Below are positions 394-42,940 of a stretch of DNA of 53,289 nucleotides, piece after piece. Each line of letters begins with the position of its first letter. Position 1 is the stretch's first letter. The notes under the pieces were generated by a model that was not told the DNA's origin, searched no databases, and saw nothing but the letters and a program-made list of their open reading frames with translations. The stretch covers positions 1 to 53,289 of IMG/VR virus record IMGVR_UViG_3300039004_000002, one strand, 5' to 3'. Position numbers and translations under genes: made by a program. This DNA is from a virus (lineage: Duplodnaviria > Caudoviricetes).

Positions 394-486
394 ATGGCTA
401 ACATCAGAACTCAATTACAAATCGCTAATGACTCATTCGCCAACGCTATGACCCTGATCGCGATGTTACGTGCAGCGCGAGGCTAA
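394..486 (+). CDS. 30-aa early peptide (MANIRTQLQ...)
   Basis: GAGGAC RBS upstream of ATG 394, directly after P1; the longer ORF call from 277 runs through the promoter. Confidence 0.55.
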   Translation: MANIRTQLQIANDSFANAMTLIAMLRAARG

Positions 487-490
487 GAGA

Positions 491-976
491 ATGAACCAGA
501 AGTTACTTGACAACATCCGATCTATGAACGAAGCTGAGTTGTATGCCGCTATATACAAGGACGCATTAACTGGCGCTAACAATCGACGCGCTTTCGACCA
601 GAAGAACGACTATTCAACTGTGGCTATTGTTGATATGGATTCGCTTAAATATCTGAACGACAAATATGGGCATCGCACAGGTGACCAGTACATGATCAAT
701 CTGGTGGACATACTGCGCACCCATTTCGGGGACGACAATGTCTATCGATTGGGAGGAGATGAGTTTGCGGTGACTTCGTATCTGAGTTGTGAAGCTCTTA
801 CTGTAAAGTTAACCCATATCCAGCGCAAAGTAGAATTCTTCACTTTTGGGACTGGGGTGTACTTGGCTGAAGCGGACGATCAGTTGAACAGGAATAAGGA
901 ACGACGTGAGAAGTGTGGTCAACGTGCATCACGAGGTGAGTGCCCACCTTGGGAAATCAAAAATATTTGCGCCTAG
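491..976 (+). CDS. GGDEF-domain diguanylate cyclase
   Basis: Motifs DALTGANNRRAF, DMDSLKYLNDKYGHRTGD and RLGGDEF; ATG 491 follows the stop of the upstream peptide. Confidence 0.92.
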   Translation: MNQKLLDNIRSMNEAELYAAIYKDALTGANNRRAFDQKNDYSTVAIVDMDSLKYLNDKYGHRTGDQYMINLVDILRTHFGDDNVYRLGGDEFAVTSYLSCEALTVKLTHIQRKVEFFTFGTGVYLAEADDQLNRNKERREKCGQRASRGECPPWEIKNICA

Positions 977-2877: not shown

Positions 2878-3239
2878 GATCGCTCACTTACTGCTGGGCC
2901 CAGGACCAGTGCTTACAGAACGCAGAGATAGCAGAAAAGGGAGCTATCATACTTTTATTGATGATAGCGTCTATTGCTGTGCTAGTATGTGCCGCAATTA
3001 TCTTGCATCAGGCGTATAAGTTCTTTATAGTGCTTGCTGACGCCGTTGGGGCGCACATTCTGCATCTCTGGAGAGGACAAATGTATCTGAAACTGGCCTG
3101 GATCATCATTGGTCTGATCGCCATGTACCTGTTAGGGCATTACTGGAACAAAGGACTCGTTCCTTTCGTATTCTTCTGGTGTGTTGTGTATTCTTACATG
3201 ATACGCCCAAAAGGTAAGAAGCGTGAAGACCAACGGTGA
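2874..3239 (+). CDS. membrane protein (a second start at 3081 with a strong RBS is possible)
   Basis: Several hydrophobic segments; ATGA overlap with the upstream gene; GAGAGGA before ATG 3081. Confidence 0.6.
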   Translation: MRSLTYCWAQDQCLQNAEIAEKGAIILLLMIASIAVLVCAAIILHQAYKFFIVLADAVGAHILHLWRGQMYLKLAWIIIGLIAMYLLGHYWNKGLVPFVFFWCVVYSYMIRPKGKKREDQR

Positions 3240-3564
3240 GCGTGAAGAGTGGGACACACCCTGTCGAGGGGTGTGTTCTACGACTAACGTAGGCGATTCA
3301 ATATGCAGAGGATGCGGGCGCACTGCGGAAGAAGTTATCAACTGGAACTCGTACACCCGTGATCAGAAGGTCGCGGTCAATCGGAGGCTCAAAATTCAAA
3401 AATCAATCTGGCCCATAAAGGAGAATCCAGACTGGCCAAAAATCGAGCCTGAGTATCTAGAGCAGTTACAGGCGGTGCCGAATGAAGAACGTCGTAAATT
3501 TCTTGAAGGTGATTGGAATGGACCGGATAATCAATTGGGAGGGGACGTACATTCCACCGAGTGA
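3223..3564 (+). CDS. DUF1289-like Cys-rich protein with C-terminal terminase-like peptide
   Basis: PCRGVC...CRGCGRT.EE..NW is typical of DUF1289; the C-terminus KENP..PEY...RR..LEGDW matches a TerL segment. Confidence 0.8.
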   Translation: MKTNGEREEWDTPCRGVCSTTNVGDSICRGCGRTAEEVINWNSYTRDQKVAVNRRLKIQKSIWPIKENPDWPKIEPEYLEQLQAVPNEERRKFLEGDWNGPDNQLGGDVHSTE

Positions 3565-3754
3565 CAAAGAGGACGTCATTCGTGCGGAGTTTGCGCTCAA
3601 AGGTTGGAAACGGGATTCCCTTGGACGTATGAACAAGGGTAATCTCCAGATCGTGTTTATATTCGATAAGGTGTGCCTTAAGAAGTACGAGGATGGGCAG
3701 TGGCGAACTGTGCAGAAAGCATCTATTGACCGTTTATATGAGAAGCTGAAATGA
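3518..3754 (+). CDS. hypothetical protein
   Basis: ORF in the early operon, ATGA-coupled to the next gene. Confidence 0.6.
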   Translation: MDRIINWEGTYIPPSDKEDVIRAEFALKGWKRDSLGRMNKGNLQIVFIFDKVCLKKYEDGQWRTVQKASIDRLYEKLK

Positions 3755-3999
3755 AATACCTTATTCTGGCATGTGCTGTGCTTGTAGGCTGCGAGGCCAA
3801 AGACGTGCGCGGCAAATACCACTATCCATATAAAGGGACTCACATTGTATGCAGGGACGGGGAGACTTGGCAGATGGGCGCTGTGCGCTATAAGCTCAAA
3901 GGACCTGTACCCTGCACTATAACGGACCCAGCAACAGGAAAGACAGAGTTCAAAGGTGTTGAACCTGATATTGTCGTCTTTATACAGGAATCGAAATAA
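3751..3999 (+). CDS. putative lipoprotein
   Basis: Signal peptide with lipobox: MKYLILACAVLVG-C. Confidence 0.7.
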   Translation: MKYLILACAVLVGCEAKDVRGKYHYPYKGTHIVCRDGETWQMGAVRYKLKGPVPCTITDPATGKTEFKGVEPDIVVFIQESK

Positions 4000-4526
4000 T
4001 GCTTGACTTCATGATTATTGGATTACCAAGATCCGGAACTACCTGGGCAGCCAACTGGTTGACTACTAAGGACACCTTCTGTCTTCATGACCCTTTGTAC
4101 AAACTGCACTATTCGGAATGGGACACAGACCGGAAGCACTTTCCGCATCCGATGGATTATCGTTTAATTGGCGCAAGCTGCACAGCCATATGGCGGTTCC
4201 CGGACTATGTGAACGCGCACCCTGCGAACAAGATTGTGGTCATGCGGGACTTCCAGGAGATTCAGGATAGCTTAGATCAACTTGGTTTGCCTCAGCTTAA
4301 TGACGACGCACCTTTCCAGTTAGAGGACATTGAAGCGCCTCGGGTGCAGTATACAGACTTATTCGATCCCGAGCGTGCGCCCCTTATATGGGAGAAGCTA
4401 GTCGGCCCTGGGTATTGTCCGCATAGACATAAGGCGTTGAGTGAAATTCATATCGAACCCCATTTCGAACGTATTGAACCTGACTTCGAGGTGACGAAAA
4501 GGCTTTACGAAGAACTTAACGGATAG
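3999..4526 (+). CDS. sulfotransferase-like P-loop protein
   Basis: N-terminal FMIIGLPRSGTTW (PAPS 5'-PSB-like loop), LHDP, IVVMRD. Confidence 0.7.
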   Translation: MLDFMIIGLPRSGTTWAANWLTTKDTFCLHDPLYKLHYSEWDTDRKHFPHPMDYRLIGASCTAIWRFPDYVNAHPANKIVVMRDFQEIQDSLDQLGLPQLNDDAPFQLEDIEAPRVQYTDLFDPERAPLIWEKLVGPGYCPHRHKALSEIHIEPHFERIEPDFEVTKRLYEELNG

Positions 4527-4534
4527 TTTAATTC

Positions 4535-4563
4535 TTGCAACATCTGAAGACTTGTGTAATACT
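4535..4563 (+). promoter_or_regulatory. putative promoter (TTGCAA-16/17-TAATAC(T))
   Basis: Intergenic; CATCTGA (reverse complement of the TCAGATG motif in P1/P2) lies in the spacer. Confidence 0.55.
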
Positions 4564-4595
4564 TAAATGGAATTCATCACTGCGAGGTAATAAAG

Positions 4596-4829
4596 ATGAA
4601 TACAGAGTTGACAAGCCAACAGAAAGGCAGACTGACAGAACTATCGGATGCGAGCCGGGATCTGATGCAGATTATTCAGCTAGTGTATATCGAAGATGGG
4701 CACCAGAAGGATCTTGAGAAAGCGTTAGGCGACCTTTATGCAGTAGCAGGGCACATGGCGGTTGAACAGGATATTTCATGGACTGGGTTGTGTGAATGTG
4801 CCCAGAAGCATTATGAGGAGGCAGAGTGA
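4596..4829 (+). CDS. hypothetical protein (weak MazG-like helix, LEKALGDL)
   Basis: GAGG RBS; ORF track. Confidence 0.65.
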   Translation: MNTELTSQQKGRLTELSDASRDLMQIIQLVYIEDGHQKDLEKALGDLYAVAGHMAVEQDISWTGLCECAQKHYEEAE

Positions 4830-5248
4830 TTCTAGTGAAGGTACGGGCCGACGGAGTCGACTCGTACTACCTTGTGAATCAGATAACTCAAGTATATCAG
4901 AAAATAGCGAAAGAAGGCTTATCCCCTGAGAGTGTAGAAACCCTCACTGATAATGTGATAGTTGATCTGCACCCAGAACGAGAAACTCCTGAAACCTTCC
5001 TTACTAAATGCTGTCTTGAGTTTGAGATCACTCTTGCTGACTTGCGCGGGCCCGACAGGAAGAAGCGTATTGTCTCTATCCGAAAGGTGGTGTCTTATCA
5101 GCTTCGTAAGAAGTTCGATTTATCCCTTCCGGATATTGGCGACATGTTACATCGTGACCACACTAGCATCATCTACAACCTGGAGTCCGTCGAGAAGCAG
5201 CTTAAAGACGGTGGACCATTAATAAACCTACTTGAGAGGATTCAATAA
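4826..5248 (+). CDS. DnaA C-terminal (domain IV) HTH-containing protein
   Basis: ADLRGPDRKKRIVSIRKVVSYQLRKKFDLSLPDIGDMLHRDHTSII matches the Bac_DnaA_C pattern. Confidence 0.85.
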   Translation: MILVKVRADGVDSYYLVNQITQVYQKIAKEGLSPESVETLTDNVIVDLHPERETPETFLTKCCLEFEITLADLRGPDRKKRIVSIRKVVSYQLRKKFDLSLPDIGDMLHRDHTSIIYNLESVEKQLKDGGPLINLLERIQ

Positions 5249-5682
5249 TGAACAGACGTAATTTCATCAAGAATGTGCTTTATGGGATGGCAGCAATTAG
5301 CGCCTTTCCTACTAAGGCAGCAGAACTCTATCCCGAAGCATTCACTATTGATCCGGTACCTGCTGATCCTACCTATACAGGGCACACAAACCCGGCACGC
5401 TGTATGCTTGATCTTCTTCGGACTGTGTATGACCCCGAAGACATAGATTATGAATCTTTCGAGGATGTTGCACAGCAATTAGAAGGAACTATTCCACCTG
5501 AAGTAATAGCGGACGGATTCATTATAGGTGAAGGACATCTTACTTTTGACGAGGGCGCAAACCGCCTCTGCGATATAGGTGACTTCTTTGTTTATGTTGA
5601 CGGTGAAAACGATCACTTAGTGAAGGCTAAGAAGGTGGATAAATATGACACAGACGCAATACTGCACCCTCTGCGGTCGTGA
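5248..5682 (+). CDS. Tat-signal protein carrying a stand-alone tail-tip (gpJ-like) hub domain
   Basis: MNRRNFIK...AxA signal; NPARCMLDLL..DIDYESF..VYVD..DKYDTD aligns with this genome's tail-tip protein. Confidence 0.75.
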   Translation: MNRRNFIKNVLYGMAAISAFPTKAAELYPEAFTIDPVPADPTYTGHTNPARCMLDLLRTVYDPEDIDYESFEDVAQQLEGTIPPEVIADGFIIGEGHLTFDEGANRLCDIGDFFVYVDGENDHLVKAKKVDKYDTDAILHPLRS

Positions 5683-5707
5683 AGGGCATTATCCAAAAGA
5701 TTGCCCC

Positions 5708-5737
5708 TTGCGCCCGCCAACAGAAGCATCTTATAAT
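5708..5737 (+). promoter_or_regulatory. putative promoter (TTGCGC-18-TATAAT)
   Basis: Perfect -10; AGAAGCATCT in the spacer is the reverse complement of AGATGCTTCT in P2. Confidence 0.6.
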
Positions 5738-5768
5738 GAGCTTTCTGAACATAACAAAGGAAACAAAA

Positions 5769-5957
5769 GTGAAGACTAAGATCAAGAAGATTAAGTCCTC
5801 GTCAGATTTCACAGAGCGCCTGAATGGTGTAGGAACTTTCCGTATTACTGGTCCCAGTGCTAAGGATGGAAAGCGAATTACCATTAACTTCAACGGAACA
5901 CGCGCCCAAGCAGAAAAGGTCGCAGCCAGCCCATTGGTATTGGAGCACGGGGTATGA
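5769..5957 (+). CDS. small basic protein, integrase-Arm/AP2-like beta-sheet DNA-binding pattern
   Basis: AAGGA RBS with GTG start; DGKRITINFNGTRAQAEK. Confidence 0.55.
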   Translation: MKTKIKKIKSSSDFTERLNGVGTFRITGPSAKDGKRITINFNGTRAQAEKVAASPLVLEHGV

Positions 5958-6466
5958 GTAAGATTCATGACAAGATGCGAAAGCTCTTAGCACTTGCCGA
6001 GCGCGGTGAAGGCGGGGAGAAAGATAACGCCCAGCGGATGCTGGAAAAGATGATGGAGAAATATGGTATCTCCTTAGACGACCTTGGGGTCGAGACAACA
6101 TCCATTCACTATTGGAACTATGACAGTATGCACGAACGGACTATATTGTTTCAGACGTTCGGCAAGGTGTGCAACACATCAGAAATCACCTACTATAAGG
6201 GTGATCGGAAATGCGGATTCGAGCTTACGCCTTCCCAGTATATCGAGATGGATCTGCATTATAGCATCCTTCGCAAGGACCTGAAGAAACATATTGAACG
6301 CGCTGTGCGTGCTTTCATACACGCCAATGAACTGTTTTCAAACCATCCTTCCGAGAAGCAGAAGGAATACACTCAGGAAGAGCTTGAAGAAATAGAAGCG
6401 ATGTTGCGTATGGCTCGCAGTATTGCACCCTCACAAGTTAACCGGCAACTGGAGTACAAGGCATGA
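5954..6466 (+). CDS. DUF2786-domain protein
   Basis: KIHDKMRKLLALAERG.GGEKDNA..MLEKMMEKYGI. Confidence 0.8.
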   Translation: MSKIHDKMRKLLALAERGEGGEKDNAQRMLEKMMEKYGISLDDLGVETTSIHYWNYDSMHERTILFQTFGKVCNTSEITYYKGDRKCGFELTPSQYIEMDLHYSILRKDLKKHIERAVRAFIHANELFSNHPSEKQKEYTQEELEEIEAMLRMARSIAPSQVNRQLEYKA

Positions 6467-6717
6467 CAGATGAATTTCTTGTCACCATTGCAGATGCAGT
6501 TCTCAAGCACGTTGACGAAGTGGAACGTAATGGGCGCACGTCTCATCCTATTGTTGTCTTCAATTATGAGGGTAGGCAGAGGGCACATGCTGACCGCAAA
6601 TTTTATGAGTTCTTTGAGCCTCGTATAACGGAAGTAGAGGATCTGTCTTTTATGGGGTATCCGACGAAAGTGGATACAGAACAGACCGCACTATTTACAG
6701 TGAGAGAAACCGAATGA
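6463..6717 (+). CDS. hypothetical protein, possible HK97 capsid A-domain-like
   Basis: ATGA coupling on both sides; SFMGYPTKVD motif. Confidence 0.7.
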   Translation: MTDEFLVTIADAVLKHVDEVERNGRTSHPIVVFNYEGRQRAHADRKFYEFFEPRITEVEDLSFMGYPTKVDTEQTALFTVRETE

Positions 6718-7124
6718 AGATAGCTTTTGCATACCCACCTAATTTCCGGAAGATTGTAAAAGTCTTCCCAGCCGCAAGGGGTCATGGTGTCATTTACACA
6801 TACGGTGACACCATATTCAACCCTGGGCGCGTAGACATTCCACCTTCATTGCTTGCACATGAGGAAGTCCATTCCAAGCGACAGGGCACAAACCCGGATA
6901 TCATTGAGGAATGGTGGAATCGGTATCTTGTTGACAAGCAATTTCGCTTCGATGAGGAATTGCTTGCACATCAGGAGGAGTTTCGTTGGTATATTAACTC
7001 CAGCCTCAAAGAGAAGCGCGTCGCGCTCAACTACATTGCCCGCAGGCTGTCCTCCCCGCTATATGGGAAGCTGACAGATATCAAGCAGGCTAAAGCCATC
7101 CTTGAAAAGGTACACAAATCATGA
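6714..7124 (+). CDS. HEXXH zincin-like metallopeptidase
   Basis: LLAHEEVHSKRQ followed by FDEELLAH (third-ligand Glu region). Confidence 0.7.
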   Translation: MKIAFAYPPNFRKIVKVFPAARGHGVIYTYGDTIFNPGRVDIPPSLLAHEEVHSKRQGTNPDIIEEWWNRYLVDKQFRFDEELLAHQEEFRWYINSSLKEKRVALNYIARRLSSPLYGKLTDIKQAKAILEKVHKS

Positions 7125-7522
7125 CAGATCAAATCAACGAACATTTATTCAATTTTAAGCTGCCCATGTTTCCGAACCAGTCGATCAGCGAGAATGGTAT
7201 GCAGTGCGTGCTCGAGATGGATGGTATGCAGATGAAAGGTGTCACAGGTGGGCACCTTAGATTCGGCGCCAATGGATTCACCAATGTGGTCATTGAGTAT
7301 GAGGCAAGCTGTGCAGCAGAGTTCGCAGGGCACCTGGTAGCGCACATGACCGGATTCACGCATGAGGAGCAGCAGCTTCAGCTCGCTGAGATCTTTCGTG
7401 ATGTGAATAATGAGATCATGGCCGAGCTTGAATCGGAGGGTGCAAACTTGATGGACGAATATATGGCCCAAGCCGATTTCGTGCGCCGCATCATCGAATT
7501 GACAATTGAGAGAATTAAGTAA
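7121..7522 (+). CDS. hypothetical protein
   Basis: ATGA-coupled ORF. Confidence 0.75.
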   Translation: MTDQINEHLFNFKLPMFPNQSISENGMQCVLEMDGMQMKGVTGGHLRFGANGFTNVVIEYEASCAAEFAGHLVAHMTGFTHEEQQLQLAEIFRDVNNEIMAELESEGANLMDEYMAQADFVRRIIELTIERIK

Positions 7523-7525
7523 CTG

Positions 7526-7555
7526 TTGCGATACGAGCGCCTGACGCTGTATAGT
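7526..7555 (+). promoter_or_regulatory. putative promoter (TTGCGA-18-TATAGT) upstream of structured non-coding segment
   Basis: Directly after the stop at 7522; same TTGC class as the other promoters. Confidence 0.6.
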
Positions 7556-7561
7556 ATGCAA

Positions 7562-7822
7562 TGTCAGCCGGCGGAGTAACTGATAGCCTTCCCATACACC
7601 GGAAGTGAACCAGCCAGGACGCCGGACACCCGGGCACCAGCGGGATATGACAATCAATATATTGGTGCCGTAAACTGAGTGAATCAGATATGAGTGCAAG
7701 CGCCCAAGTCCCGGGCGGTCGGCGTGACCCGGCGAAGGTATATGTCACGATGTATTCGACTTGTACAAGGATCTGAGTAGCTTGCCCCAAGGTGGGCACC
7801 CGGGCATGGTTCTGGGTGTCTA
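7562..7822 (+). ncRNA. candidate ~260-nt structured ncRNA or long structured leader
   Basis: Only long gene-free stretch in a tightly coupled region; many nested helices, with G-U pairs consistent with the + strand (see findings). Confidence 0.55.
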
Positions 7823-7846
7823 CCTACTTAACAAAGAGGACCCAGT

Positions 7847-8173
7847 ATGAGCGGCGATGACCTTTATATGGACGCCCATCTTCTTAACGATGAACCGTCC
7901 AGAGAATTTCAAGCGGGTATGAAGCCTGCACGAAAACACAATCACTATTTCAAAGATGTAAACAACCTCACAGAAGTTGACGTGTATCGGGTTTGCCAAC
8001 TGTTCAATGTTGACGATCCGAGCGGAGCAATCCAACACGCCATCAAGAAACTTCTCCTTCCAGGTCAGCGTGGAGCTGGCAAAAATCGTCGCAAGGACAT
8101 TCAGGAAGCTATTGACACCTTGAAACGTCGGCTTGAGATGATGGACGAGGACGGGGAGGTTCCACCTACTTAG
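7847..8173 (+). CDS. conserved phage protein (DUF3310/SaV-like)
   Basis: HNHY..DVYRV..F....AIQHAIKKLL.PGQRG.K...DIQEA; GAGGAC RBS. Confidence 0.7.
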   Translation: MSGDDLYMDAHLLNDEPSREFQAGMKPARKHNHYFKDVNNLTEVDVYRVCQLFNVDDPSGAIQHAIKKLLLPGQRGAGKNRRKDIQEAIDTLKRRLEMMDEDGEVPPT

Positions 8174-8181
8174 AGACTACT

Positions 8182-8415
8182 ATGGACTATCAAGAATTCT
8201 TTGGGCGCTTAGCCTTCTTTGCCTTCCTGGGACTTATATGCTCAGGTGTCATTACTCACATTTTGATGAATGTTGAAGAGAAGCGCGGATTCCCCTTCTC
8301 CCAAGAATTCTGGAAGGAACTGAAAATTGGCGTGTGGGTACTTGTATTCGCATTTGGAATTGGTGTCGATGTTTGGCTTGTTATGTGCATCATCGACTGG
8401 CTAGGTACAGACTAA
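8182..8415 (+). CDS. two-TM membrane protein
   Basis: Two hydrophobic helices. Confidence 0.7.
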   Translation: MDYQEFFGRLAFFAFLGLICSGVITHILMNVEEKRGFPFSQEFWKELKIGVWVLVFAFGIGVDVWLVMCIIDWLGTD

Positions 8416-8957
8416 TGAACTATGGACAATCTAAATTCGCCTCATTTATTGAAGCATGTGCCAACGCTGCTGCTGGCCTGATCTTTTCTTATACGATACA
8501 AATCGTTCTTATCCATGCTTATGGCGTGGAAATGTCAAATACTACGGCGGCGCACTTTGTCTTCTGGTTTACGATCGCTTCTGTATTCCGCTCCTATGTT
8601 ATACGCCGAATCGGGAATCTCCCGTATTGGGCCCGTATACGCGAGCGTAGGCGCAAGGCTAAACTGGCTCGGGAATGTGCGGAGCGCGGTCATTTGCCGA
8701 TTAGCAGCATTACAGGGCACACGTATTGCGAGCACTGCGAAGACTTACTACATACAGACCCAAAGGCTGTTGAGGAATTCGAGCGCGATCCCTTTAGTAT
8801 TGAGCCAACGGTCACTCTTATCAAACAGAAAGAGGGTGAACGTACAATCGTTCTGAAGAACTGCTTTGCTGACGAACAACAAATACAAGAGTTCTTGAAT
8901 AGCGAGCGCGGTGAGCGTCTAGTGATGGATATCATTAATGGAAAAAGAATCAACTAA
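8415..8957 (+). CDS. membrane protein with Zn-knuckle and C-terminal tape-measure-like peptide
   Basis: TAATG coupling; N-terminal QSK.ASFIEACAN...RSYVIRR two-TM family; C..GH..CEHC; C-terminus resembles the TMP end. Confidence 0.75.
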   Translation: MNYGQSKFASFIEACANAAAGLIFSYTIQIVLIHAYGVEMSNTTAAHFVFWFTIASVFRSYVIRRIGNLPYWARIRERRRKAKLARECAERGHLPISSITGHTYCEHCEDLLHTDPKAVEEFERDPFSIEPTVTLIKQKEGERTIVLKNCFADEQQIQEFLNSERGERLVMDIINGKRIN

Positions 8958-9303
8958 GAGTTGTCCGAAATGCGGTTGCACAGCTCTAGTTCTGTTGACC
9001 ACATTAAACAAGAAGATCTGCGGCGATTGCGGGGAACACATACCATGGTTCCTCGAGAAAGGGCAGAAGTCACTATTAACAAATAAAACAGGCGGTTCCG
9101 ATGACGATCAATGTACGACAAAAGGGCCAGGAGGGAGAACGCGAGATAGCGAAGATCCTGAACTCAATTGTGGCCAAGGTAAGGGACGAGTTCAAGCTGA
9201 AGCAGTACGCCAAGGAAGACGAACTGTTCCAGCGCAACCAGAACCAAAGCGCAGTTGGTGGATCAGACTTATCAAACCCACTCTATTTAGAAATCGAAGT
9301 TAA
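8938..9303 (+). CDS. zinc-ribbon protein (C-terminal part overlaps the resolvase gene)
   Basis: CPKC...CGDC. Confidence 0.55.
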   Translation: MEKESTKSCPKCGCTALVLLTTLNKKICGDCGEHIPWFLEKGQKSLLTNKTGGSDDDQCTTKGPGGRTRDSEDPELNCGQGKGRVQAEAVRQGRRTVPAQPEPKRSWWIRLIKPTLFRNRS

Positions 9304-10650: not shown

Positions 10651-11022
10651 GTGAATGAAATGGGCGAAACCTTATCAAAATTAGTTGAAGCGGGTCTGGG
10701 CTATGTATGGTTTGTTATTCTTGCTGTATGGGGCGGAACGGTGAATTACCTGAGTCGTATAAAGCAAGGTAAAGTTGAAGCGTTTTCTTTCGTGGAGTTA
10801 ATGGGTGAATGGGCGGTCAGTGGGTTTGCGGGCTTACTGACGGCCTTTATATGTACCGAGATGGAAATGTCCTGGCACATGACAGCCTTCTTCACAGGTA
10901 TATCGGGGCATCTAGGTGGACGAGCTATTTACATGCTTGAGTCATATGCTAAAAGACATCTACCATTCCTTGATAAAGAAGTCCAGAAGCAGCGAACCAA
11001 AAAGGACGATGACAATGTTTGA
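10651..11022 (+). CDS. holin (LydA-like)
   Basis: Three TM segments, SGFAGLL and GISGHLGGRAI motifs, charged C-terminus, upstream of the endolysin. Confidence 0.85.
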   Translation: MNEMGETLSKLVEAGLGYVWFVILAVWGGTVNYLSRIKQGKVEAFSFVELMGEWAVSGFAGLLTAFICTEMEMSWHMTAFFTGISGHLGGRAIYMLESYAKRHLPFLDKEVQKQRTKKDDDNV

Positions 11023-11527
11023 TAAAGCATTCGATCGGGTATTTACCAATGAGGGCGGGTATCAGGATGATCCTGCTGATCGTGGGAACTGGACTTCTGG
11101 TGTTGTTGGGCAAGGGGAGTTGAAAGGTACAAAGTATGGCCTTGCAGCAATGACCTATCCCGACTTGGACATCAAGAACTTAACACTGGCAGAGGCCAAA
11201 GCTATTTACAAGCGTGATTGGTGGGACAAACTCGGAATGGAAAGTTTCCGTCCGGCAATGTCATATCAGATGTTTGATGCTGCTATCAATCACGGAATGT
11301 ACAATGCCACAAAGATCCTCCAATACGCCATAGGTGCAAAGGCGGATGGCATCATCGGTCCCAAGACGCGAGGCGCGGCTGCCAGTATGGAGCTCAACGA
11401 CTTGCTGATGTGTTTCCTGGCCGAGCGGCTTGTGTTTATGACAGATGTCCGCACCTGGGAGCGCTACGGGAAAGGGTGGGCACGACGTATCGCTCACAAT
11501 CTCAAACTGGCCTCAAACGACAACTAG
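11015..11527 (+). CDS. endolysin, glycoside hydrolase family 108 with PG-binding domain
   Basis: [41 protein letters not shown] (alternative start at 11009). Confidence 0.93.
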
Positions 11528-12174: not shown

Positions 12175-13728
12175 ATGCTTCCGGCAGTACAGACCCAGAC
12201 TCCAGAAGCGCCAGATGTAGTTTGGAGCCCATTAGACGGTTCCCAAGTCCTAGCGATATCCTGTCCCTGTAACCACATTCTATATGAGGGCACACGCGGC
12301 CCAGGTAAGACTGATGCTCAGCTCATGTACTTCCGACGCTTTGTTGGCATCGGATACGGACAGTTCTGGCGCGGTGTCATCTTCGATCGCGAATATAAAA
12401 ACCTTGACGACCTTATATCCAAGTCAAAACGCTGGTTCAGGCAGTTTGGGGATGGTGCCAAGTTTATCGCAAGCACAAGCCACCTGAAATGGATCTGGCC
12501 CACTGGGGAGGAACTTTGGTTCCGTGTAATGAAGACGGAACAAGACTATTGGAATTATCACGGGCACGAATTTCCATTCATTGGATGGAACGAGCTTACC
12601 AAGCAACCTAACTCCGAATTGTATGATATGGCGATGTCCTTGAACCGGACTTCGTTCCTACCTGACAAACACAGCCCGAAAGACCCTAAGACAGGTGAGA
12701 TGCAGATCCTGCCTGAAATTCCTCTTGTGGTATTCAGCACAACGAACCCTTATGGTGTTGGGCACAACTGGGTCAAGCAGCGTTTCATTGATGCAGCTCC
12801 TCCAGGTGTTATCGTACCTATCACAAGCGAAGTATTCAACCCGCGTACACAGCAGCGCGAACCCATTACCAAGACACAGGTGCGCCTGTTTGGGTCATAC
12901 AAAGAGAATATCTATCTATCCCCTGAATACATCTTAGAGCTGGAAAACATTCAGGACCCTAACAAGCGCCGAGCTTGGTTGTGGGGTGACTGGGATATCA
13001 CGAGCGGTGGCATGTTTGACGATGTGTGGTCAACTGAGCATAACATAGTCGAGCCTTTCCAAATTCCACCTGGTTGGAAGATCTTTCGTTCTTTTGACTG
13101 GGGGTCAAGTAAGCCATTCAGCGTTGGTTGGTGGGCTGAAAGTGACGGGTCAGATGTCATGCTTCCCAATGGCCAATGGAAGTCTACAGTACGAGGGGAT
13201 CTGTTTAGAATAGCAGAGTGGTATGGTTGGACTGGTGCAGCGAACCAGGGCGTCAAGATGCTCGCTACACAGATCGCAAAAGGAATCGTTGAACGAGAGA
13301 TCAGAATGGGCTATTATGGGCGGGTCAAAGCTGGCCCCGCTGATAGCTCTATCAACGATGTTGAGAATGGGAACTGCATTGCCACTGACATGGCGAAGAA
13401 AGTCACTATTAACGGGAAGCAGTATAAAGGGGTGACATGGACCCGAAGTATTAAGTCACCCGGCAGCAGAAAGAACGGCTGGGAAAAGATGCGTATAGCA
13501 ATCTTCAACGCTCAGCCTGATAATGGGCCAAGGGAATACCCGGGTCTGTTTGTGTTCCGTAACTGCCAGGACGGGTTCATAAGAACTGTGCCAAGCCTGT
13601 CACGTGATCCTAAAGATATGGACGATGTCAATACTGAGGATGAAGATCACGTAGCAGATGAGTCACGCTATGTTATACTATCGATGGGCGATCGCTTCTC
13701 TAGCGGGTCCACCACAGGTCACTTCTAA
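12175..13728 (+). CDS. terL: terminase large subunit
   Basis: GTRGPGKT (Walker A), IGWNELT, TTNPYGVGHNWVK, FDWGSSKPF, EDHVADESRY. Confidence 0.95.
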   Translation: MLPAVQTQTPEAPDVVWSPLDGSQVLAISCPCNHILYEGTRGPGKTDAQLMYFRRFVGIGYGQFWRGVIFDREYKNLDDLISKSKRWFRQFGDGAKFIASTSHLKWIWPTGEELWFRVMKTEQDYWNYHGHEFPFIGWNELTKQPNSELYDMAMSLNRTSFLPDKHSPKDPKTGEMQILPEIPLVVFSTTNPYGVGHNWVKQRFIDAAPPGVIVPITSEVFNPRTQQREPITKTQVRLFGSYKENIYLSPEYILELENIQDPNKRRAWLWGDWDITSGGMFDDVWSTEHNIVEPFQIPPGWKIFRSFDWGSSKPFSVGWWAESDGSDVMLPNGQWKSTVRGDLFRIAEWYGWTGAANQGVKMLATQIAKGIVEREIRMGYYGRVKAGPADSSINDVENGNCIATDMAKKVTINGKQYKGVTWTRSIKSPGSRKNGWEKMRIAIFNAQPDNGPREYPGLFVFRNCQDGFIRTVPSLSRDPKDMDDVNTEDEDHVADESRYVILSMGDRFSSGSTTGHF

Positions 13729-24043: not shown

Positions 24044-26444
24044 TTTAGCACGCCTTCAGATACGGGTACAGTCGCTTGAGGCTGAGGTCGCTGACCAACG
24101 CCTTAAGGGTCTCGAGCGCACAGGCCGGCGTACAGAACGCGCCACAGACGGCCTTACTGCTGCCTTTAAAAGATTTGCCGGGCCTGTAGCTGCTGCTGCT
24201 GGCGCTGTAGCGACCTTACGCAAGGTCGTCAGCGTGACCCGCGAGTTTGAAGTCCTGAATGCCCAGTTGGTGACTGCTACTGGGTCCGCAGAATCCGCCG
24301 GGGTAGCCTTTGAGGCCATTCAGGACTTCGCCTCTTCAACCCCTTATGACTTGCAACAGGTCACTGAGGGGTTTGTCAAGCTCGTTAACTTGGGCCTGAC
24401 ACCTTCCGAAGCTGCACTGACTTCCTACGGTAACACAGCATCTGCAATGGGTAAAGACCTCAACCAGTTGATTGAGGCTGTTGCAGATGCGGCGACAGGT
24501 GAGTTTGAACGTCTGAAGGAGTTTGGTATTCGTGCCAAGTCCCAGGGCGATGAAGTATCATTTACCTTCCGCGGTGTGACCACAACAGTTGGCAAGAACG
24601 CTGCCGAGATTGAAGCCTATCTACAAGCACTCGGAGAAAACGAATTTGCTGGTGCTATGCAACAGCGCGTCGAAACGCTGGATGGTGCATTGTCCAATCT
24701 TGGGGACGAATGGGATAAGCTCTTCCTGAATATCAGCAACACTGGAATCGGAGAAGTAATTGAAGACAGTGTGCGCGTCGCAATTGACATCCTAGCTGAA
24801 TTGAATGCGATGTTGGCGTCAGGACAGATTGAAGGATACTTGGACGCAATTGCGGGCAAGTTTGAAGGCTTCGGACGTGATGTTGCAACCACCATTGATA
24901 TCTTGACAGAGTTGTGGAACGACTTCCTTGGCACGCCTGAAGGTGAAGGGCTTGCTGGTGCAACTGGGGAGACACTCAAATTTATTATAGCAGCGTTCAA
25001 GAACTTGCCAGAGAATATCCGTGCAGTGATCCAGCTAATGGCTGTCGAGATTGGTGCGCTTGTTGACTACGGTAAAGCCTACGGGCAAGCATTCGGTGAA
25101 GTGTTAGGTTCTGAGTTTGCCAAGATTGTTGAGAAGTCAAAAGCGTATGGTCAAGCAATCGGACAAGCTATCAATCCATTTGATGACAACGATTTCGATC
25201 TTGAAGCACGTCTGCGTGAGCTTGATGCTATTGCTGCGGATATGGCTGATAACGCATTTAGTCGGGCTGAGAAGCAGGCTGCTATTACTACACAGGCGCG
25301 TCGGGATAGTATTGTAGCGATTCTCGAAGAGCGCGATGCAGCATTAGCATCCTTCGACACCCAGATCACAGCAGCTGAAACTCTTCGTAAGAAGTATGAC
25401 GAGGAATTGGCTGCACGTAAGGCAGCTGGCGAGGATAGGCTTGCACAGTTCAGAACAGGTGCTGATCCTACCGAAGGCGGGGAAACTGACGCTGAGCGTA
25501 AAGCACGTGAAGCCCGTGAGAAGGAATTTGAGAACCTACGTCAGTCATTGCGCTCCGAGGAAGAAGTTATCCAGGAGAGCTATGATAAACGACTCGCAAT
25601 CATTCTCAACAATACTGAAGAAGGGTCTAAGCAGCAAGCGGATCTGAAACAGCGCTTGGATGAAGAGTTTGCAACACAAGCTCTAGGCGATCTTGCTGCA
25701 CCAGATACATTCGAAGAGCAACTCAACCAGCTTGAAGAGTTCTACAATGCACGCCGTGAGTTGATTCTCAACAATACAGCAATCACTGAAGAACAACGCA
25801 CACAGCTCGAGGAGGAGCTCACTAAGCAGCGCAACGAACGCCTGGCAGCTTTAGAGCAACAGCGTATGTCTGTCATCTTTAGCAGCAGCGCGCAACTGTT
25901 CGACGGATTAGCTGGACTTGCTAAACAGTTCGCTGGCGAACAAAGCACCACATTCAAACTCCTGTTCGCAGCCAGCAAGGCCTTTGCGATTGCGGAAGCT
26001 GTGGTCAAGATTCAGCAAGGTATCGCGAACGCTGCATCACTACCGTTCCCAGCTAACCTTCCTGCAATGGCATCAGTAATTTCAGCCACAGCAGGTATCG
26101 TCAGCACGATTTCAGGAACGAACTATAATGCTGGCGCCTTTGACTCTGGTGGTACAATCCCTCAAGGTAAGATCGGTCTTGTAGGTGAGTTTGGTCCAGA
26201 GCTTGTTGAAGGTCCTGCTAACGTGCGCAGCCGACGTGAGACTGCTGCAATGTTTAAAGAGGCTTCTAATGATGACGGTGGCTCAGGAGCAGTCGCACCA
26301 AATATGCAAAACAACATAAGAATCGTCAATAATGTAGACCCAGCAGTATTTGAAGACTTCCTAGGTTCAACAGCAGGCGAAGAATTAATCATGAACACTA
26401 TCAGGAACAACCCTGAGACGGTTAGAGCAGTGAGCGGATCCTAA
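24036..26444 (+). CDS. tape measure protein
   Basis: 802-aa Ala-rich helical protein; TPYDLQQV, GEFERLKEFGI, GLVGEFGPELV. Confidence 0.92.
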   Translation: MDDLARLQIRVQSLEAEVADQRLKGLERTGRRTERATDGLTAAFKRFAGPVAAAAGAVATLRKVVSVTREFEVLNAQLVTATGSAESAGVAFEAIQDFASSTPYDLQQVTEGFVKLVNLGLTPSEAALTSYGNTASAMGKDLNQLIEAVADAATGEFERLKEFGIRAKSQGDEVSFTFRGVTTTVGKNAAEIEAYLQALGENEFAGAMQQRVETLDGALSNLGDEWDKLFLNISNTGIGEVIEDSVRVAIDILAELNAMLASGQIEGYLDAIAGKFEGFGRDVATTIDILTELWNDFLGTPEGEGLAGATGETLKFIIAAFKNLPENIRAVIQLMAVEIGALVDYGKAYGQAFGEVLGSEFAKIVEKSKAYGQAIGQAINPFDDNDFDLEARLRELDAIAADMADNAFSRAEKQAAITTQARRDSIVAILEERDAALASFDTQITAAETLRKKYDEELAARKAAGEDRLAQFRTGADPTEGGETDAERKAREAREKEFENLRQSLRSEEEVIQESYDKRLAIILNNTEEGSKQQADLKQRLDEEFATQALGDLAAPDTFEEQLNQLEEFYNARRELILNNTAITEEQRTQLEEELTKQRNERLAALEQQRMSVIFSSSAQLFDGLAGLAKQFAGEQSTTFKLLFAASKAFAIAEAVVKIQQGIANAASLPFPANLPAMASVISATAGIVSTISGTNYNAGAFDSGGTIPQGKIGLVGEFGPELVEGPANVRSRRETAAMFKEASNDDGGSGAVAPNMQNNIRIVNNVDPAVFEDFLGSTAGEELIMNTIRNNPETVRAVSGS

Positions 26445-28676: not shown

Positions 28677-28873
28677 TGAGTGAAGTAAGAGTCTTCATGA
28701 AAGATATAAGGTCCGCTAAAATGTGCTCTAAAGGGGCACGCGCATTCTTTTCTCGCCATCACCTTGATTGGGAAGATTTTCTAAGAAATGGAATAAACTC
28801 GGATAAGCTCGAAGCCACTGGTGATGCAATGGCCTTAGAAGTCGTGGAGGTGGCCCGTGGGCGGAAGCAGTAA
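28676..28873 (+). CDS. small tail assembly protein
   Basis: MCSKGAR.FF.RH.LDW.DFL.NGI...L.ATGDAMA. Confidence 0.75.
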   Translation: MSEVRVFMKDIRSAKMCSKGARAFFSRHHLDWEDFLRNGINSDKLEATGDAMALEVVEVARGRKQ

Positions 28874-31800
28874 AAAAGTTACCGTAGGCTATAAATACTA
28901 TCTTGGTATGCACATGGTACTATGTCATGGGCCTATCGATTCTATTACTGAAATTCATGTTGATAAAAGACTAGCTTGGCAAGGGAACGAAACTGGTGGA
29001 ACTCTCTCAATAGACAATGAAGGTCTATTTGGGGGAGAAGATCGTGAAGGAGGTATCAGCGGTGATGTTGATATCTTAATGGGTGGCCCATCACAGACTA
29101 AGAATTCTTACCTTCAAGCCCGCCTTGGTACTAATATTCCAGCCTTCAGGGGTGTCGTTAGTGCAGTTCTGAAACAAGTCTATCTTGGTCTTAATCCTTA
29201 CCTTAAAGCATGGGCGTTTCGAGGTACAAGAATTTATGTGACATCTGAAGGTGAGGAACAATGGTATCCTGATAAAGCACGAATCGCGAACCCTGTGGTT
29301 GGTGTATTATTGAATGAGCAATTTTCCTCATTATCAAGCTACACCACATATGAAGGAAGTTCTTCGGCTTTCTCTATTGTTTCAGATGATTATGGAAATG
29401 CTCTGAATATTGCAGCAGGGGTCTCAACTAACGACAGTATTCAAAGACAGTTTGCACAAGAAGCCTCTGTCTATTCAGTTAGGGGTAAATTCAAAGTTCT
29501 ATCATCAGGGACGGATGATTCTGGGGTTATCAGACTTCAGGACGATTCAAATAATCAGGTATTCTTTTTTAATCCGAGAAGAGCTGTAGCGCAAGACGCT
29601 TCACGCCGTCCTCATTTTGCTACCACTGGAACAAGTCAGCAATTCACTACACCAGGAGGAGCTTTAGACTTAGATCATTGGTATCAATTGGAAGCGTCAT
29701 ATAATAGTTTCTCAGATAATTGGGTATTTTCAGTATATGACTTGGATGATGATAGCTTAATACATAGCCAAACTATTGCTGGCACCCCTTCAGGTACGGC
29801 TTCGAACTTAAGATGGGCAATACAAAATGATGGAGTAAATGGAAGCCCTACTAGATGGGCCGACGTGCAAATCACCTCAGGCTTTGCTGATATGAATCCT
29901 ATTCATATTTTACGTGAATGTCTGACGGATAAGACCTGGGGCATGGGTTATTTATCAGCTGATATAGATGATACTTCTTTCACGACTGCTGCAAATACTC
30001 TGGTAGACGAGAAAATGGGAATGAGTCTTCTTTGGGATAGGCAAATTCCAATTGAAGATTTTGTAGGTGAAGTCTTAAGACATATCAATGCGGTACTTTT
30101 CGTTGATAGGATATCAGGAAAGTTTGTTGTTAAACTAATCAGGGATGATTATGACGTAGACGACCTTATAACTCTGGACGAAACTAATATATTAACGGTA
30201 AGTGATTATAGTAGAGTCGATCAGGGCGATGCTGTGAATTCTGTGACGGTGATATATTGGGATTCTGCTAAAGGGGAGAACGCTGGCATCACTGCGGATG
30301 ATATTGCAATGATCCAGGCTTATGGAACTGTGGTCAATACGACAATACAGTATCCAGGTTTCACGAATAGCTTCATTGCGGGTAAAGCTGCCCAGAGAGA
30401 CCTTAAGTCATTATCATCGCCTTTATTAAGTTGCACAATTGAAGCAAATAGAGAGGCTTCTAATTTGAATATTGGGGACGTTTTTAAGTTTCAATATTCA
30501 GATTATCATGATGGGTATATTGTAATGCGAGTCCATCAAATTGCACTTGGTGACGGAAAGAACAATAGAGTCAAAATTGTAGCTTCTGAAGATGTTTTTG
30601 CGTTACCCACTACCTCAGTTCTAGCTGAAGAGGATCCCGGTTGGGTAGAACCAGGAGGAGAACCCGTTGAAGCTACAGATCGTCTAGTAGTCGAAGCGCC
30701 TTATTATGAGATGGTTCAATCTCTAGGACAAACTGATATAGATAATCAAATTTCTACTACACCTGAGATAGGATACCTTATTGCAGCGGCCGCAAGGCCA
30801 ACTAATGGTCTTAATGCCAAAGTATGGGTCGACGATGGTTCAGGTTATGAGGAATCTGCTGTATTAGATTTTTCACCTTCTTTAGAATTAGCCACAACTG
30901 TTGATAGAAACTCCACCACTTGGGACTTTATAAATGGTCAGGATTTGGATCAGGTCATTATAGGGACACATGGACAAATCGGGAATGAATTAATTCGTAT
31001 AGATTCTATTGATGAAGGTACCGGGGAGATTACTGTTGGTAGAGGTGTCTTGGATACTGTACCTGAACCACATACTTCTGGAGACATCCTTATCTTCTGG
31101 GATGTATATGCAGCCAGCGATAATACTGAATATGTAGATGCAGAAGAGATAGATGTTAAAATACTTCCCAATACTAACCAAGGGGGCCTTGCTTTAGCCG
31201 ATGCGACCGCTGACGCATTAATATTTGACTCGCGGGCAGTGAGACCTTATCCTCCAGGGAAATTACAGTTCAATAGTGAATATTTTCCTGATGCTATTGT
31301 AGGAACTTTGACACTTGATTGGGCTCATAGGGATAGACTACAACAGACATCTGGTTCCTTATATGATTTTCTTGATAACAGTATAGGTCCCGAAGCAAGT
31401 ACCACTTATAATTTATACCTGTATGATGAGGATAATACATTAGCCGAAACCGTCACCGGACTTACCGGGACTACATATACGTGGTCATCTGAGGTTAGTT
31501 TCTCAACTATTGGTATTAAAACTCCGACACTTCATTACGCAATGAATGATGATTCTGGTGGAACTTTAGTAGATGAACAAGCAACTCAGAATGGAACTAT
31601 CACAGGGGCCACTCTTGTATCTGGTGGAATTAAGAATTCTAATTGCCTTGATTTTGATGGTTCAAGTGATCATTGTAATGTTTCATATGCTATAACAATA
31701 ACGAGTTATCTTGGAGTATCCTTATGGATAGACCCAGATCATGATGCTAGTGATGGTCGTATGGTAGGGTGGCGGGATGTAGGAACCCCGAATATAATTT

Positions 31801-42882: not shown

Positions 42883-42940
42883 AATCACTCCTAGAGGTGT
42901 GGCGGGTGTCCAGCACCCGCCTTCTCTTGTTTGGGTCAGA

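What the first reader, a model, noticed from the sequence alone, without database searches (positions are those of the whole stretch)
3223..8957. Candidate new system: early genes carrying detached fragments of virion/packaging proteins (structural-protein decoys)
SEEN: within 6 kb of the early region, three unrelated small genes each contain a segment that aligns by eye with a different late protein of this genome. These are the TerL peptide (3418-3519 vs 12901-12996), the tail-tip hub domain (5248-5682 vs ~29892-30167) and the tape-measure C-terminus (8844-8945 vs ~26313-26411). A weaker fourth case is the capsid A-domain (6463-6717). Each of the three is grafted onto a different carrier (DUF1289, Tat signal, two-TM anchor). 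The protein segments are strongly diverged, so these are old or foreign captures whose key motif residues were kept. KNOWN: terminase, capsid and tail proteins trigger or are targeted by bacterial immunity (Avs, CapRel, DSR2, prophage tail-assembly blockers), and DSAD1 inhibits DSR2 by competing with the tail tube protein. INFERENCE: the phage expresses non-assembling mimics early, either to soak up immune sensors or assembly inhibitors, or to poison injection or assembly of competing phages.
Basis: partly seen in the sequence, partly recalled or inferred. Interest (0 to 1): 0.92.

Follow-up and report, generated by a model that had tools for sequence, protein, structure and literature searches.

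The report
Accessory genes built from virion-gene pieces
Three small accessory genes of a marine tailed phage really do carry short pieces resembling its DNA-packaging enzyme, tail-tip hub and tail ruler protein, but they come and go independently between close relatives, so they look like separately captured fragments (possibly interface mimics) rather than one organised decoy system.

Summary
The window is a 53-kb Queuovirinae-like siphophage contig.

1. The DUF1289 protein (3223-3564) ends in a 56-aa tail matching the TerL helix-loop-helix just before the nuclease domain.
2. The protein at 5248-5682 belongs to a family of about 90-aa proteins that are remote sequence and fold relatives of a gpJ/central-hub subdomain.
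3. The DUF7220 membrane protein (8415-8957) ends in a 25-aa motif like the tape-measure C-terminus. Support is at profile level only.

The capsid case is noise.

The TerL-like and TMP-like tails are missing from every homologue of their carriers that I found. Contigs of related phages drop or replace each gene separately, and one relative has the DUF1289 domain without the tail. I therefore read these as independent captures in a cassette hot-spot, not a co-inherited system.

I favour interface mimicry (portal or tail-tip competitors) as the function. This is inferred and untested. Neutral debris is nearly as likely, and immune decoys are unlikely.

The parts
3223..3564 (+). Gene for a 113-aa protein: DUF1289 four-Cys domain (residues 12-57) plus a C-terminal extension
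   Evidence: Pfam PF06945 E 4.6e-15. GTG start fits the homologues' N-terminus 'MK.NGE'.
3394..3564 (+). TerL-like tail (residues 58-113) of the DUF1289 protein. Lineage-specific.
   Evidence: phrog_979 E 2.7e-5. Smith-Waterman z 6.9. hhalign P 2.6e-4, 0 of 150 shuffles. Absent in 30 of 30 related loci. An X2 contig fits up to 3387, then its remaining 119 letters lie nowhere on the stretch.
12913..13038 (+). Parent-like segment of the phage's own TerL (residues 247-288): helix-loop-helix plus linker just before the nuclease domain
   Evidence: Alignment. Terminase_6N profile positions 144-212 of 215. AF2 model has helices 250-257 and 262-269 and the first nuclease-domain strand at 302-308, but pLDDT is below 50 across 240-284.
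5248..5682 (+). Gene for a 144-aa protein: Tat-like signal (RRNFIK, h-region, TKA/A) plus a hub-like domain
   Evidence: TIGR01409 15.2 bits versus cut-off 16.7. Family of small proteins. Gene exactly skipped in an X2 contig and in a minor X1 contig.
5371..5631 (+). Core (residues 42-128) resembling a gpJ/central-hub subdomain
   Evidence: hhalign P 6.2e-5, 0 of 60 shuffles. AF2 pLDDT 73.6. Foldseek top hits are tail-hub proteins. Atlas structure rows TM 0.55-0.65 to tail proteins.
29877..30134 (+). Matching segment of the 1146-aa gpJ-like tail protein (residues 341-426), at the N-terminal edge of its Phage-tail_3 domain
   Evidence: hhalign alignment. Pfam Phage-tail_3 at residues 398-549.
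8415..8957 (+). Gene for a 180-aa membrane protein: DUF7220 (residues 5-68), basic stretch, CxxC, then a lineage-specific extension of about 57 aa
   Evidence: PF23858 E 1.5e-16. Homologues P0012-14 are 123-137 aa and end before the extension. Hydropathy and K/R count.
8868..8942 (+). 25-residue motif resembling the tape-measure C-terminus
   Evidence: HMM E 0.0012, rank 1 of 928 non-self ORFs. hhalign P 1.6e-5, 0 of 150 shuffles. Against.
26334..26402 (+). Conserved C-terminal motif of the tape-measure protein (residues 767-789)
   Evidence: Conserved in TMP C-termini from viral contigs. Smith-Waterman alignment.
6463..6717 (+). 84-aa ORF claimed to resemble the capsid A-domain. No resemblance found.
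   Evidence: Smith-Waterman z -0.41, 202 of 300 shuffles reach it. No Pfam or PHROG family.

Best explanation
Three accessory genes of this Queuovirinae-like siphophage each hold a piece descended from a different packaging or virion protein.
1. A TerL helix-loop-helix-plus-linker segment replaces the 3' end of a DUF1289 gene.
2. A stand-alone copy of a gpJ/central-hub subdomain forms its own small-protein family, here behind a Tat-like signal.
3. A TMP-C-terminus-like motif sits in an extension of a DUF7220 membrane protein.

They are independent, individually mobile pieces in a cassette hot-spot, not a co-inherited system.

Most likely mechanism (inferred): each piece keeps the binding surface of its parent and acts as a competitor at that interface.
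- The TerL hinge helix-loop-helix would compete at the portal.
- The hub subdomain and the TMP end would compete within the tail-tip complex, or at the envelope during DNA entry.
The effect would be to modulate or block packaging, tail assembly or injection, most plausibly of co-infecting or superinfecting relatives.

Shown: the similarities, their absence from carrier homologues, and the cassette turnover. Inferred: descent rather than convergence for the 25-residue TMP motif, any binding, any phenotype, and the timing of expression.
For: The similarities are specific.
- In the hhalign cross-matrix, matched pairs give P 1.6e-5 to 2.6e-4 and mismatched pairs give 0.15 to 0.75.
- No shuffle reaches the real scores.

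TerL piece:
- phrog_979 hit; 34 of 40 listed tblastn rows are terminase.
- It covers predicted helices 250-257 and 262-269 next to the inter-domain linker.
- In T4, a helix-loop-helix associated with the hinge is thought to contact the portal, and a peptide of it inhibits packaging in vitro (review PMC9958956, passages seen).

Hub piece:
- Foldseek and the Atlas point to tail hubs.
- The family has 11 small members in a 1.84-billion-protein library.
- One member lies in the pre-terminase accessory region of another viral contig.

Independence and recency:
- The tail is found in 0 of 30 related DUF1289 loci.
- The extension is found in 0 of 3 diverged DUF7220 homologues.
- R7M lacks all three genes.
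- Contig joints skip 3040-3806, 3068-3994, 5247-5662 and 5247-6713. An X2 contig that fits 3102-3387 with 12 differences has 119 further letters that lie nowhere on the stretch, and 3387 is the domain/tail boundary.

Not an assembly artefact: identical proteins occur on contigs from other assemblies.
Against: - No functional data of any kind.
- The TerL and TMP pieces occur only in this phage and near-identical copies, so selection on them cannot be measured. Such singletons are what neutral recombination debris looks like.
- The TerL region in question is modelled with pLDDT below 50. Its equivalence to the T4 helix-loop-helix rests on position in the domain order, not on an alignment, because neither a sequence nor a profile search reached a solved TerL.
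- The hub match has no Foldseek hit at E<=0.001 and TM 0.40-0.46 on the full query. No gpJ-size protein appears among the 16 HMMER hits.
- The TMP motif is only about 25 residues and fails database-wide searches.
- By the positive-inside rule the DUF7220 tail would be cytoplasmic (11 K/R in residues 64-110), whereas the Tat-like protein would be periplasmic. The two do not share a compartment.
- If these genes are co-transcribed with the late genes (no terminator-like site between them on the + strand), competitors would also hit the phage's own assembly.
Confidence: 0.42

Rival explanations
1. Neutral debris. The accessory region is a recombination hot-spot. Illegitimate joins dragged in bits of late genes from unknown phages, and two of them happen to be in frame behind small genes. 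They do nothing, and only the carriers are functional.
For: The tails are singletons absent from every carrier homologue. A relative about 96% identical over 3102-3387 breaks off exactly at the tail junction. There are gene-sized replacements all along 3-9 kb. No further TerL remnants flank the fragment and there is no DNA-level similarity to the phage's own TerL. No family or PADLOC hit suggests a function.
Against: The 5248 domain is not a singleton. It is a conserved family with 10 invariant positions across 12 members, so at least that piece is under selection. Both tails are complete in-frame units that begin right after the carrier domain and end at the stop codon. All three captured pieces are interface elements of assembly proteins rather than random parts.
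Confidence: 0.35
2. One reading: early-expressed immune decoys that soak up sensors of terminase or tail proteins (Avs, DSR2-like), or bind tail-assembly inhibitors such as Tai.
For: Defence systems do target TerL and gpJ. [quoted passage not shown] Upx is modelled to bind unfolded strands of the TerL ATPase core (bioRxiv 10.64898/2026.04.30.721860, section 7 read), so fragment-level recognition is conceivable.
Against: Avs2 is reported to use a large shape-complementary pocket plus ATP (abstract). The tail lacks the ATPase core and the nuclease domain, matching only profile positions 373-407 of 642. The hub-like piece corresponds to the N-terminal hub region, not the gpJ C-terminal region where the Tai escape mutations lie. 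A Tat-like signal would remove it from the cytoplasm. There is no co-occurrence of the three genes and no PADLOC family.
Confidence: 0.08
3. The resemblances are chance or compositional, or in the TMP case a convergent short motif, with no common descent.
For: The hub pair fails pairwise Smith-Waterman (40 of 300 shuffles). The TMP motif is 25 residues and fails tblastn, PHROG and Atlas searches. The narrow-family HMMs give only E 0.065 (TerL) and 0.5 (gpJ).
Against: Rank 1 of 928 in three separate searches. An independent PHROG hit for TerL. 34 of 40 listed tblastn rows are terminase. Profile-profile and fold evidence for the hub. No shuffle reaches the real scores.
Confidence: 0.05
4. Targeting tags. 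The borrowed peptides dock their carriers onto the portal or into the tail tip so that the carriers are built into virions or brought to the assembly site.
For: The pieces are C-terminal add-ons to otherwise complete small proteins. The TMP C-terminus sits inside the tail tip in lambda (PMC10721106, passages seen).
Against: There is no evidence of virion association. A two-TM membrane protein is an unlikely tail-lumen passenger. Carrier homologues do without any tag.
Confidence: 0.05

Closest known systems
T4 gp17 hinge-associated helix-loop-helix and its synthetic peptide (review PMC9958956, passages seen)
   Same: A short helix-loop-helix element next to the ATPase-nuclease hinge of a large terminase. 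In T4 it is thought to touch the portal, and the free peptide inhibits packaging in vitro. The tail of the 3223 protein matches the element at the same place in this phage's TerL.
   Different: Here the peptide is genome-encoded and fused to a DUF1289 metal-binding domain. Equivalence to the T4 element is by position only (no alignment to a solved TerL), and no activity is known.
Tai / Ati tail-assembly inhibition and its counter-defence (PMC11364771; abstract and sections 10 and 12 read)
   Same: Small mobile-element proteins acting on the gpJ-dependent tail-assembly step. The counter-defence gene sits before the packaging module.
   Different: Tai and Ati are not described there as gpJ fragments. 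The escape mutations lie in the gpJ C-terminal region, whereas the 5248 domain resembles residues 341-426 of a 1146-aa protein and carries a Tat-like signal.
Superinfection-exclusion proteins that act on incoming tape-measure proteins (HK97 gp15, TP-J34 Ltp; recalled, not read here)
   Same: Small envelope-located phage proteins that interfere with DNA entry through the TMP. A membrane anchor and a Tat-like signal would place two of the window's proteins at the envelope.
   Different: Those proteins are, as far as I recall, not derived from virion proteins. Homology was not tested. The DUF7220 tail is predicted to be cytoplasmic.
DSAD1 inhibition of DSR2
   Same: A phage protein competing with a virion protein for a binding partner.
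   Different: That is an anti-defence function in the cytoplasm. Nothing here links these genes to DSR2, and there is no PADLOC hit.
Ordinary phage mosaicism: moron-type cassettes and illegitimate recombination (general knowledge)
   Same: Gene-sized presence/absence and replacements at gene boundaries, as seen. The accessory region is not shared with the nearest cultured relative.
   Different: Three captured pieces, all from assembly-interface elements of different late proteins, within 6 kb. One of them is established as a conserved stand-alone family.

Membership tests
DUF1289 (PF06945) | HMM above the gathering score, with the four conserved cysteines | tested here: met
   55.6 bits versus 27, residues 12-57. 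C14, C18, C28 and C31 are invariant in the alignment.
Large terminase (Terminase_6N / phrog_979) | ATPase core (Walker A/B, coupling motif) and nuclease domain | tested here: not met
   Only profile positions 373-407 of 642 are matched. tblastn of TerL on 3000-4600 finds one segment (E 1e-4), the next at 0.45. The 3223 protein is a carrier of a TerL fragment, not a terminase.
Large terminase (Terminase_6N / phrog_979) | Homology of the tail to the helix-loop-helix/linker segment at the end of the ATPase domain | tested here: met
   position.
gpJ / central tail hub (PF13550 Phage-tail_3) | Pfam or PHROG model matched | tested here: not met
   0 families at E<=0.1. No gpJ-size protein among the 16 HMMER hits.
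gpJ / central tail hub (PF13550 Phage-tail_3) | Profile-profile and fold similarity to a hub subdomain | tested here: met
   hhalign P 6.2e-5, 0 of 60 shuffles. Foldseek top hits probability 0.87-1.00, but E 4e-3 at best. Atlas TM 0.55-0.65.
gpJ / central tail hub (PF13550 Phage-tail_3) | Full hub architecture and position in the tail module | tested here: not met
   144 aa, in the accessory region 23 kb upstream of the tail module.
Tape-measure protein | TMP family models (TMP_3, TMP PHROGs) | tested here: not met
   None hit by the 8415 protein or its tail. The TMP's own C-terminus hits phrog_13338, 3336 and 2335, with no overlap.
Tape-measure protein | Conserved C-terminal motif | tested here: inconclusive
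   For. Against. Only about 25 residues.
DUF7220 (PF23858) | HMM above the gathering score | tested here: met
   60.9 bits versus 28; phrog_4276.
Twin-arginine signal peptide (TIGR01409) | Model above cut-off; RR motif, h-region, AxA-like site | tested here: inconclusive
   15.2 bits versus 16.7 for the first 31 aa; homologue P0009 12.8 bits. RRNFIK and RRKFIK are visible in 2 of 12 family members. Export was not tested.
Known anti-phage defence proteins (PADLOC) | Any PADLOC model matched | tested here: not met
   0 families for 10 accessory proteins at E<=0.01.
Anti-defence decoys / Ati-like counter-defence | Binding to a defence protein; rescue of a sensitive phage | not testable with these tools
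   No library of anti-defence proteins was at hand. This needs experiments.

The most novel reading that the evidence does not exclude
The phage carries natural interface mimics of its own assembly line. These would be a genome-encoded version of the packaging-inhibiting TerL hinge peptide that blocks the portals of competitors, an exported stand-alone hub subdomain, and a membrane-tethered TMP-end mimic that intercept the tail tip or TMP of superinfecting relatives. That would make structural-fragment capture a general route by which phages invent exclusion or assembly-control factors.
Probability: 0.12. Interest if true: 0.8.

Novelty: new variant of a known kind. Interest (0 to 1): 0.45.

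Why it matters
If even one piece is active, it would show that phages recycle interface elements of their own virion and packaging proteins as small competitors. It would also supply a natural counterpart to the synthetic T4 TerL peptide that blocks packaging.

The 5248 family is a previously unnamed family of stand-alone hub-subdomain proteins. It has no Pfam, PHROG, NCBIfam or PADLOC model and can be tested directly, because natural variants with and without the gene exist.

If the pieces are inert, the locus is still a clean example of how 3'-end replacement and cassette exchange create chimeric small proteins. It is also a caution against reading function into such resemblances.

Tried and rejected
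- megablast of 3000-9200 against phages: no match.
- The search for related loci in viral contigs with the 3223 and 8415 proteins: no relatives.
- tblastn of the downstream ORF 3518-3751 against phages: no match.
- Sequence and profile searches of TerL against solved structures: nothing. The TerL segment could therefore not be aligned to T4 gp17. Foldseek of the TerL model only confirms a TerL fold (D6E, Sf6, HK97, T4).
- Genome-contig scan with the 5248 family: none.
- Flanking direct repeats around the cassettes: only short two-copy matches, taken as chance.
- Other TerL remnants near 3223-3564, or DNA-level identity to the phage's own TerL: none.
- Whether other accessory ORFs hit structural PHROGs: among those scanned, only the 3223 protein does at E<1e-3. 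The real TerS and spanin were also scanned.
- phrog_365 and phrog_23960 ('tail protein', E 0.04-0.12) for the 8415 tail: too weak. No late protein I scanned belongs to them.
- Complex prediction of the portal with the TerL-like tail: no answer, neither support nor evidence against.
- Sequencing runs: no RNA holder listed.
- In one search the bins 3414-3620 have no cover in X2, X3 and X5, and X5 has no cover after about 8654. A lack of cover is not counted as evidence; only the joints, the loose ends and the contig that runs on are used.
- Table 3 was cut, so the 5 differences in the X2 copy of the 8415 tail could not be classed as synonymous or not.
- Literature searches listed no paper on a natural TerL-fragment fusion or on stand-alone hub-subdomain proteins. 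They were not exhaustive. Supplements were not consulted.

Full report
**What the window is.** It is a 53,289-base viral contig, estimated 93% complete. Its TerL is 81% identical to that of Alteromonas phage vB_AcoS-R7M (Queuovirinae, Amoyvirus).
- The minus strand carries GTP cyclohydrolase I, a GATase-QueC fusion, a helicase, a ligase and related genes.
- The plus strand runs from a UvrD-type helicase (1233-2678) and a Q-like zinc-finger protein (2662-2877) through about 25 small ORFs to a RusA-like resolvase, TerS, holin, endolysin, spanin, TerL (12175-13728), portal, capsid, TMP (24036-26444) and a 1146-aa gpJ-like tail protein (28857-32297).
- The finding's genes lie among the small ORFs. 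Calling them 'early' is plausible but unproven. They are co-directional with the late genes, and the scan finds no terminator-like site on that strand between 3 and 10.8 kb.

**TerL piece.** The ORF at 3223-3564 encodes a DUF1289 domain (residues 12-57, E 4.6e-15) followed by a 56-residue tail.
- The tail aligns with the phage's own TerL residues 247-288: Smith-Waterman 68 versus 34.0 +/- 4.9 in shuffles, 0 of 300 reaching it; 36.6% identity over 41 aa by blastp.
- Independently, PHROG phrog_979 (terminase large subunit) matches residues 65-99 at E 9e-5 (2.7e-5 for the tail alone), at profile positions 373-407. The phage's own TerL spans positions 152-447 of the same profile.
- tblastn of the tail alone gives 420 weak phage hits. 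Of the 40 listed, 34 are annotated terminase and 6 are unannotated or 'hypothetical'.
- hhalign against 18 TerL relatives gives P 2.6e-4, and none of 150 shuffles reaches it.
- The TerL segment is the end of the ATPase domain (Terminase_6N positions 144-212 of 215). In an AF2 model it forms two helices (250-257, 262-269) and a linker before the first nuclease-domain strand (302-308), but with pLDDT below 50.
- No other TerL remnant lies nearby and there is no DNA-level identity. The piece is therefore an isolated capture, either old or foreign.

**The TerL tail is lineage-specific.**
- All six homologous proteins lack it. Four are 62-74 aa, and two longer ones have an unrelated C-terminus.
- In 30 related metagenome loci the DUF1289 frame stops 56-70 residues after the start of the match, and the tail finds nothing at E<=1e-3.
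- Only identical copies from other assemblies share it.
- A contig of run X2 fits 3102-3387 with 12 differences, and its remaining 119 letters lie nowhere on the stretch. Position 3387 is the domain/tail boundary. Two X5 contigs join across the whole gene (3039 to 3807 and 3067 to 3995; shorter sides 30 and 58 letters).

**Hub piece.** The protein at 5248-5682 has no Pfam, PHROG or NCBIfam family, and its pairwise score against the tail protein is not significant.
- A profile of it and two homologues found 16 proteins in 1.84 billion. Five are large repetitive proteins (four shown by Pfam to be LRR, HYR-like or other repeat matches; the fifth, P0015, has 41 stretches) and I set these aside as spurious. 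Eleven are small proteins of 85-181 aa. No gpJ-size protein appeared.
- The 12-member alignment has 10 invariant positions.
- Against a 25-sequence alignment of the gpJ region, hhalign gives P 6.2e-5 (probability 64.6, 78 columns), aligning residues 42-128 with tail-protein residues 341-426. None of 60 column shuffles comes near (best 20.2 versus 34.5), and four unrelated families give P 0.45-0.75.
- An AF2 model (pLDDT 73.6) has no Foldseek hit at E<=0.001. Its best PDB hit is the Sf11 tail (E 0.08, probability 0.97), with the JBD30 baseplate at rank 4 and the lambda tip at rank 19.
- Its 19 best BFVD hits (probability 0.87-1.00, E from 4e-3) are almost all large tail proteins. Of the 11 that carry a description, 9 are tail or virion proteins, 1 is 'uncharacterized' and 1 is a 'cell wall amidase'.
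- The Atlas agrees by structure (TM 0.55-0.65).
- I accept a remote relationship to a hub subdomain at about 75%.
- The N-terminus looks like a Tat signal but scores 15.2 bits against a 16.7 cut-off. Only 2 of the 12 members have the RR motif.
- One homologue lies among small genes upstream of the terminase in another viral contig.
- The gene is a presence/absence cassette. An X2 contig joins 5246 to 5663 with 13 other letters between (side 135). A minor contig of the probable source run does the same (depth 26.9 against about 100, side only 30). An X3 contig replaces 5247-6713 by 388 letters.

**TMP piece.** The real gene is 8415-8957 (180 aa), because the homologues start at MNYGQ. It comprises DUF7220 (E 1.5e-16), a basic stretch, a CxxC and an extension of about 57 residues that the three diverged homologues (123-137 aa) lack.
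- In favour: within the extension, about 25 residues resemble the conserved TMP C-terminal motif. Smith-Waterman gives z 3.2 (2 of 300 shuffles). An HMM of nine TMP ends ranks this ORF first of 928 non-self six-frame ORFs (E 0.0012, next best 0.44; 0.0017 without the phage's own TMP). hhalign gives P 1.6e-5, with 0 of 150 shuffles reaching it.
- Against: tblastn against 50,697 phage records finds 8 hits, none a TMP. The tail and the TMP end hit different PHROGs. The Atlas gives nothing usable. The template was also cut to the motif after the fact.
- I put real relatedness at about 55%.
- The tail is present in an X2 relative (8785-8988, 5 differences), but an X3 contig runs on unlike after 8737.

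**Capsid piece.** There is nothing: the best local alignment is 6 residues, and 202 of 300 shuffles do as well.

**Is it a system?** No evidence says so, and several results say otherwise.
- R7M has none of the three genes.
- The carriers' relatives lack the tails.
- In X2 the three features occur in the combination domain-without-tail / gene absent / tail present.
- No PADLOC family is hit.
- The region behaves as a cassette hot-spot with replacements at gene boundaries.

**How it might work.** The three pieces are not random parts of their parents.
- The first is a hinge-side helix-loop-helix of TerL. In T4, the element at that place is thought to touch the portal, and its free peptide inhibits packaging in vitro (PMC9958956, passages).
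- The second is a hub subdomain.
- The third is the TMP end, which in lambda sits in the tip lumen held by gpI (PMC10721106, passages).
- Interface mimicry is therefore my preferred mechanism, but binding, phenotype and timing are all inferred.
- Neutral debris is nearly as likely for the two singleton tails.
- Immune decoys are less likely. Avs2 is described as reading the terminase through a large shape-complementary pocket plus ATP (bioRxiv 10.64898/2026.04.30.721860, abstract and section 7). The Tai escape mutations lie in the gpJ C-terminal region (PMC11364771, sections 10 and 12). And two of the three proteins appear directed to the envelope.

**Verdict.**
- 'One new system' is not supported.
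- Function is open.
- The stand-alone hub-subdomain family and the natural TerL hinge-peptide fusion are the parts worth a bench test.

Noticed in passing
window 5645-5779 (+): A 44-aa ORF with a CCHC zinc-knuckle-like spacing (C-x2-C-x4-H-x4-C) overlaps the 3' end of gene 5248-5682. The joint of the natural variant lacking gene 5248 (5246 to 5663) falls inside it.
   Followed up: no
window 3000-9200: Cassette mosaic in related metagenome contigs. Besides the joints that remove the finding's genes, there are joints at 4564 to 4809, 6462 to 6714, 7348 to 7490 (also in the probable source run), 7847 to 7971, 7851 to 7940 and 8151 to 8181.
   Followed up: partly
window 470-976 (+): A 168-aa protein with a visible GGDEF motif (RLGGDEF). 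It matches phrog_5594 of unknown function at E 3.3e-33. This may be a phage diguanylate-cyclase-like domain.
   Followed up: no
window 37846-38751 and 39248-40678 (-): GTP cyclohydrolase I and a glutamine-amidotransferase-QueC fusion. These are 7-deazaguanine pathway genes, as expected for Queuovirinae.
   Followed up: partly
window 41466-42050, 42142-43011, 42941-43468 (-): Three neighbouring paralogous ORFs. blastp gives 31% over 123 aa (E 4e-14) and 25% over 155 aa (E 8e-4). They were not scanned against families.
   Followed up: no
window 27586-28434 (residues 226-239) and 28857-32297 (residues 1133-1146): The gpL-like protein and the very end of the gpJ-like protein share a glycine/tyrosine-rich 14-residue motif (71% identity).
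   Followed up: no
window 10916-11527 and 18506-19033 (+): The endolysin ORF and the 175-aa protein after the capsid gene (phrog_11997, unknown function) align at 27% over 142 aa (E about 6e-4 within the window).
   Followed up: no
L126 4001-4586: In a 42-kb metagenome contig, the short DUF1289 gene is followed directly by homologues of the window's 2662-2877 (Q-like zinc finger) and 8938-9303 (zinc ribbon). These small zinc-binding genes are therefore reshuffled between relatives.
   Followed up: no
window 7523-7846: A 325-nt gap without a listed ORF on the + strand, holding two promoter-like matches (7526-7555 and 7647-7676).
   Followed up: no
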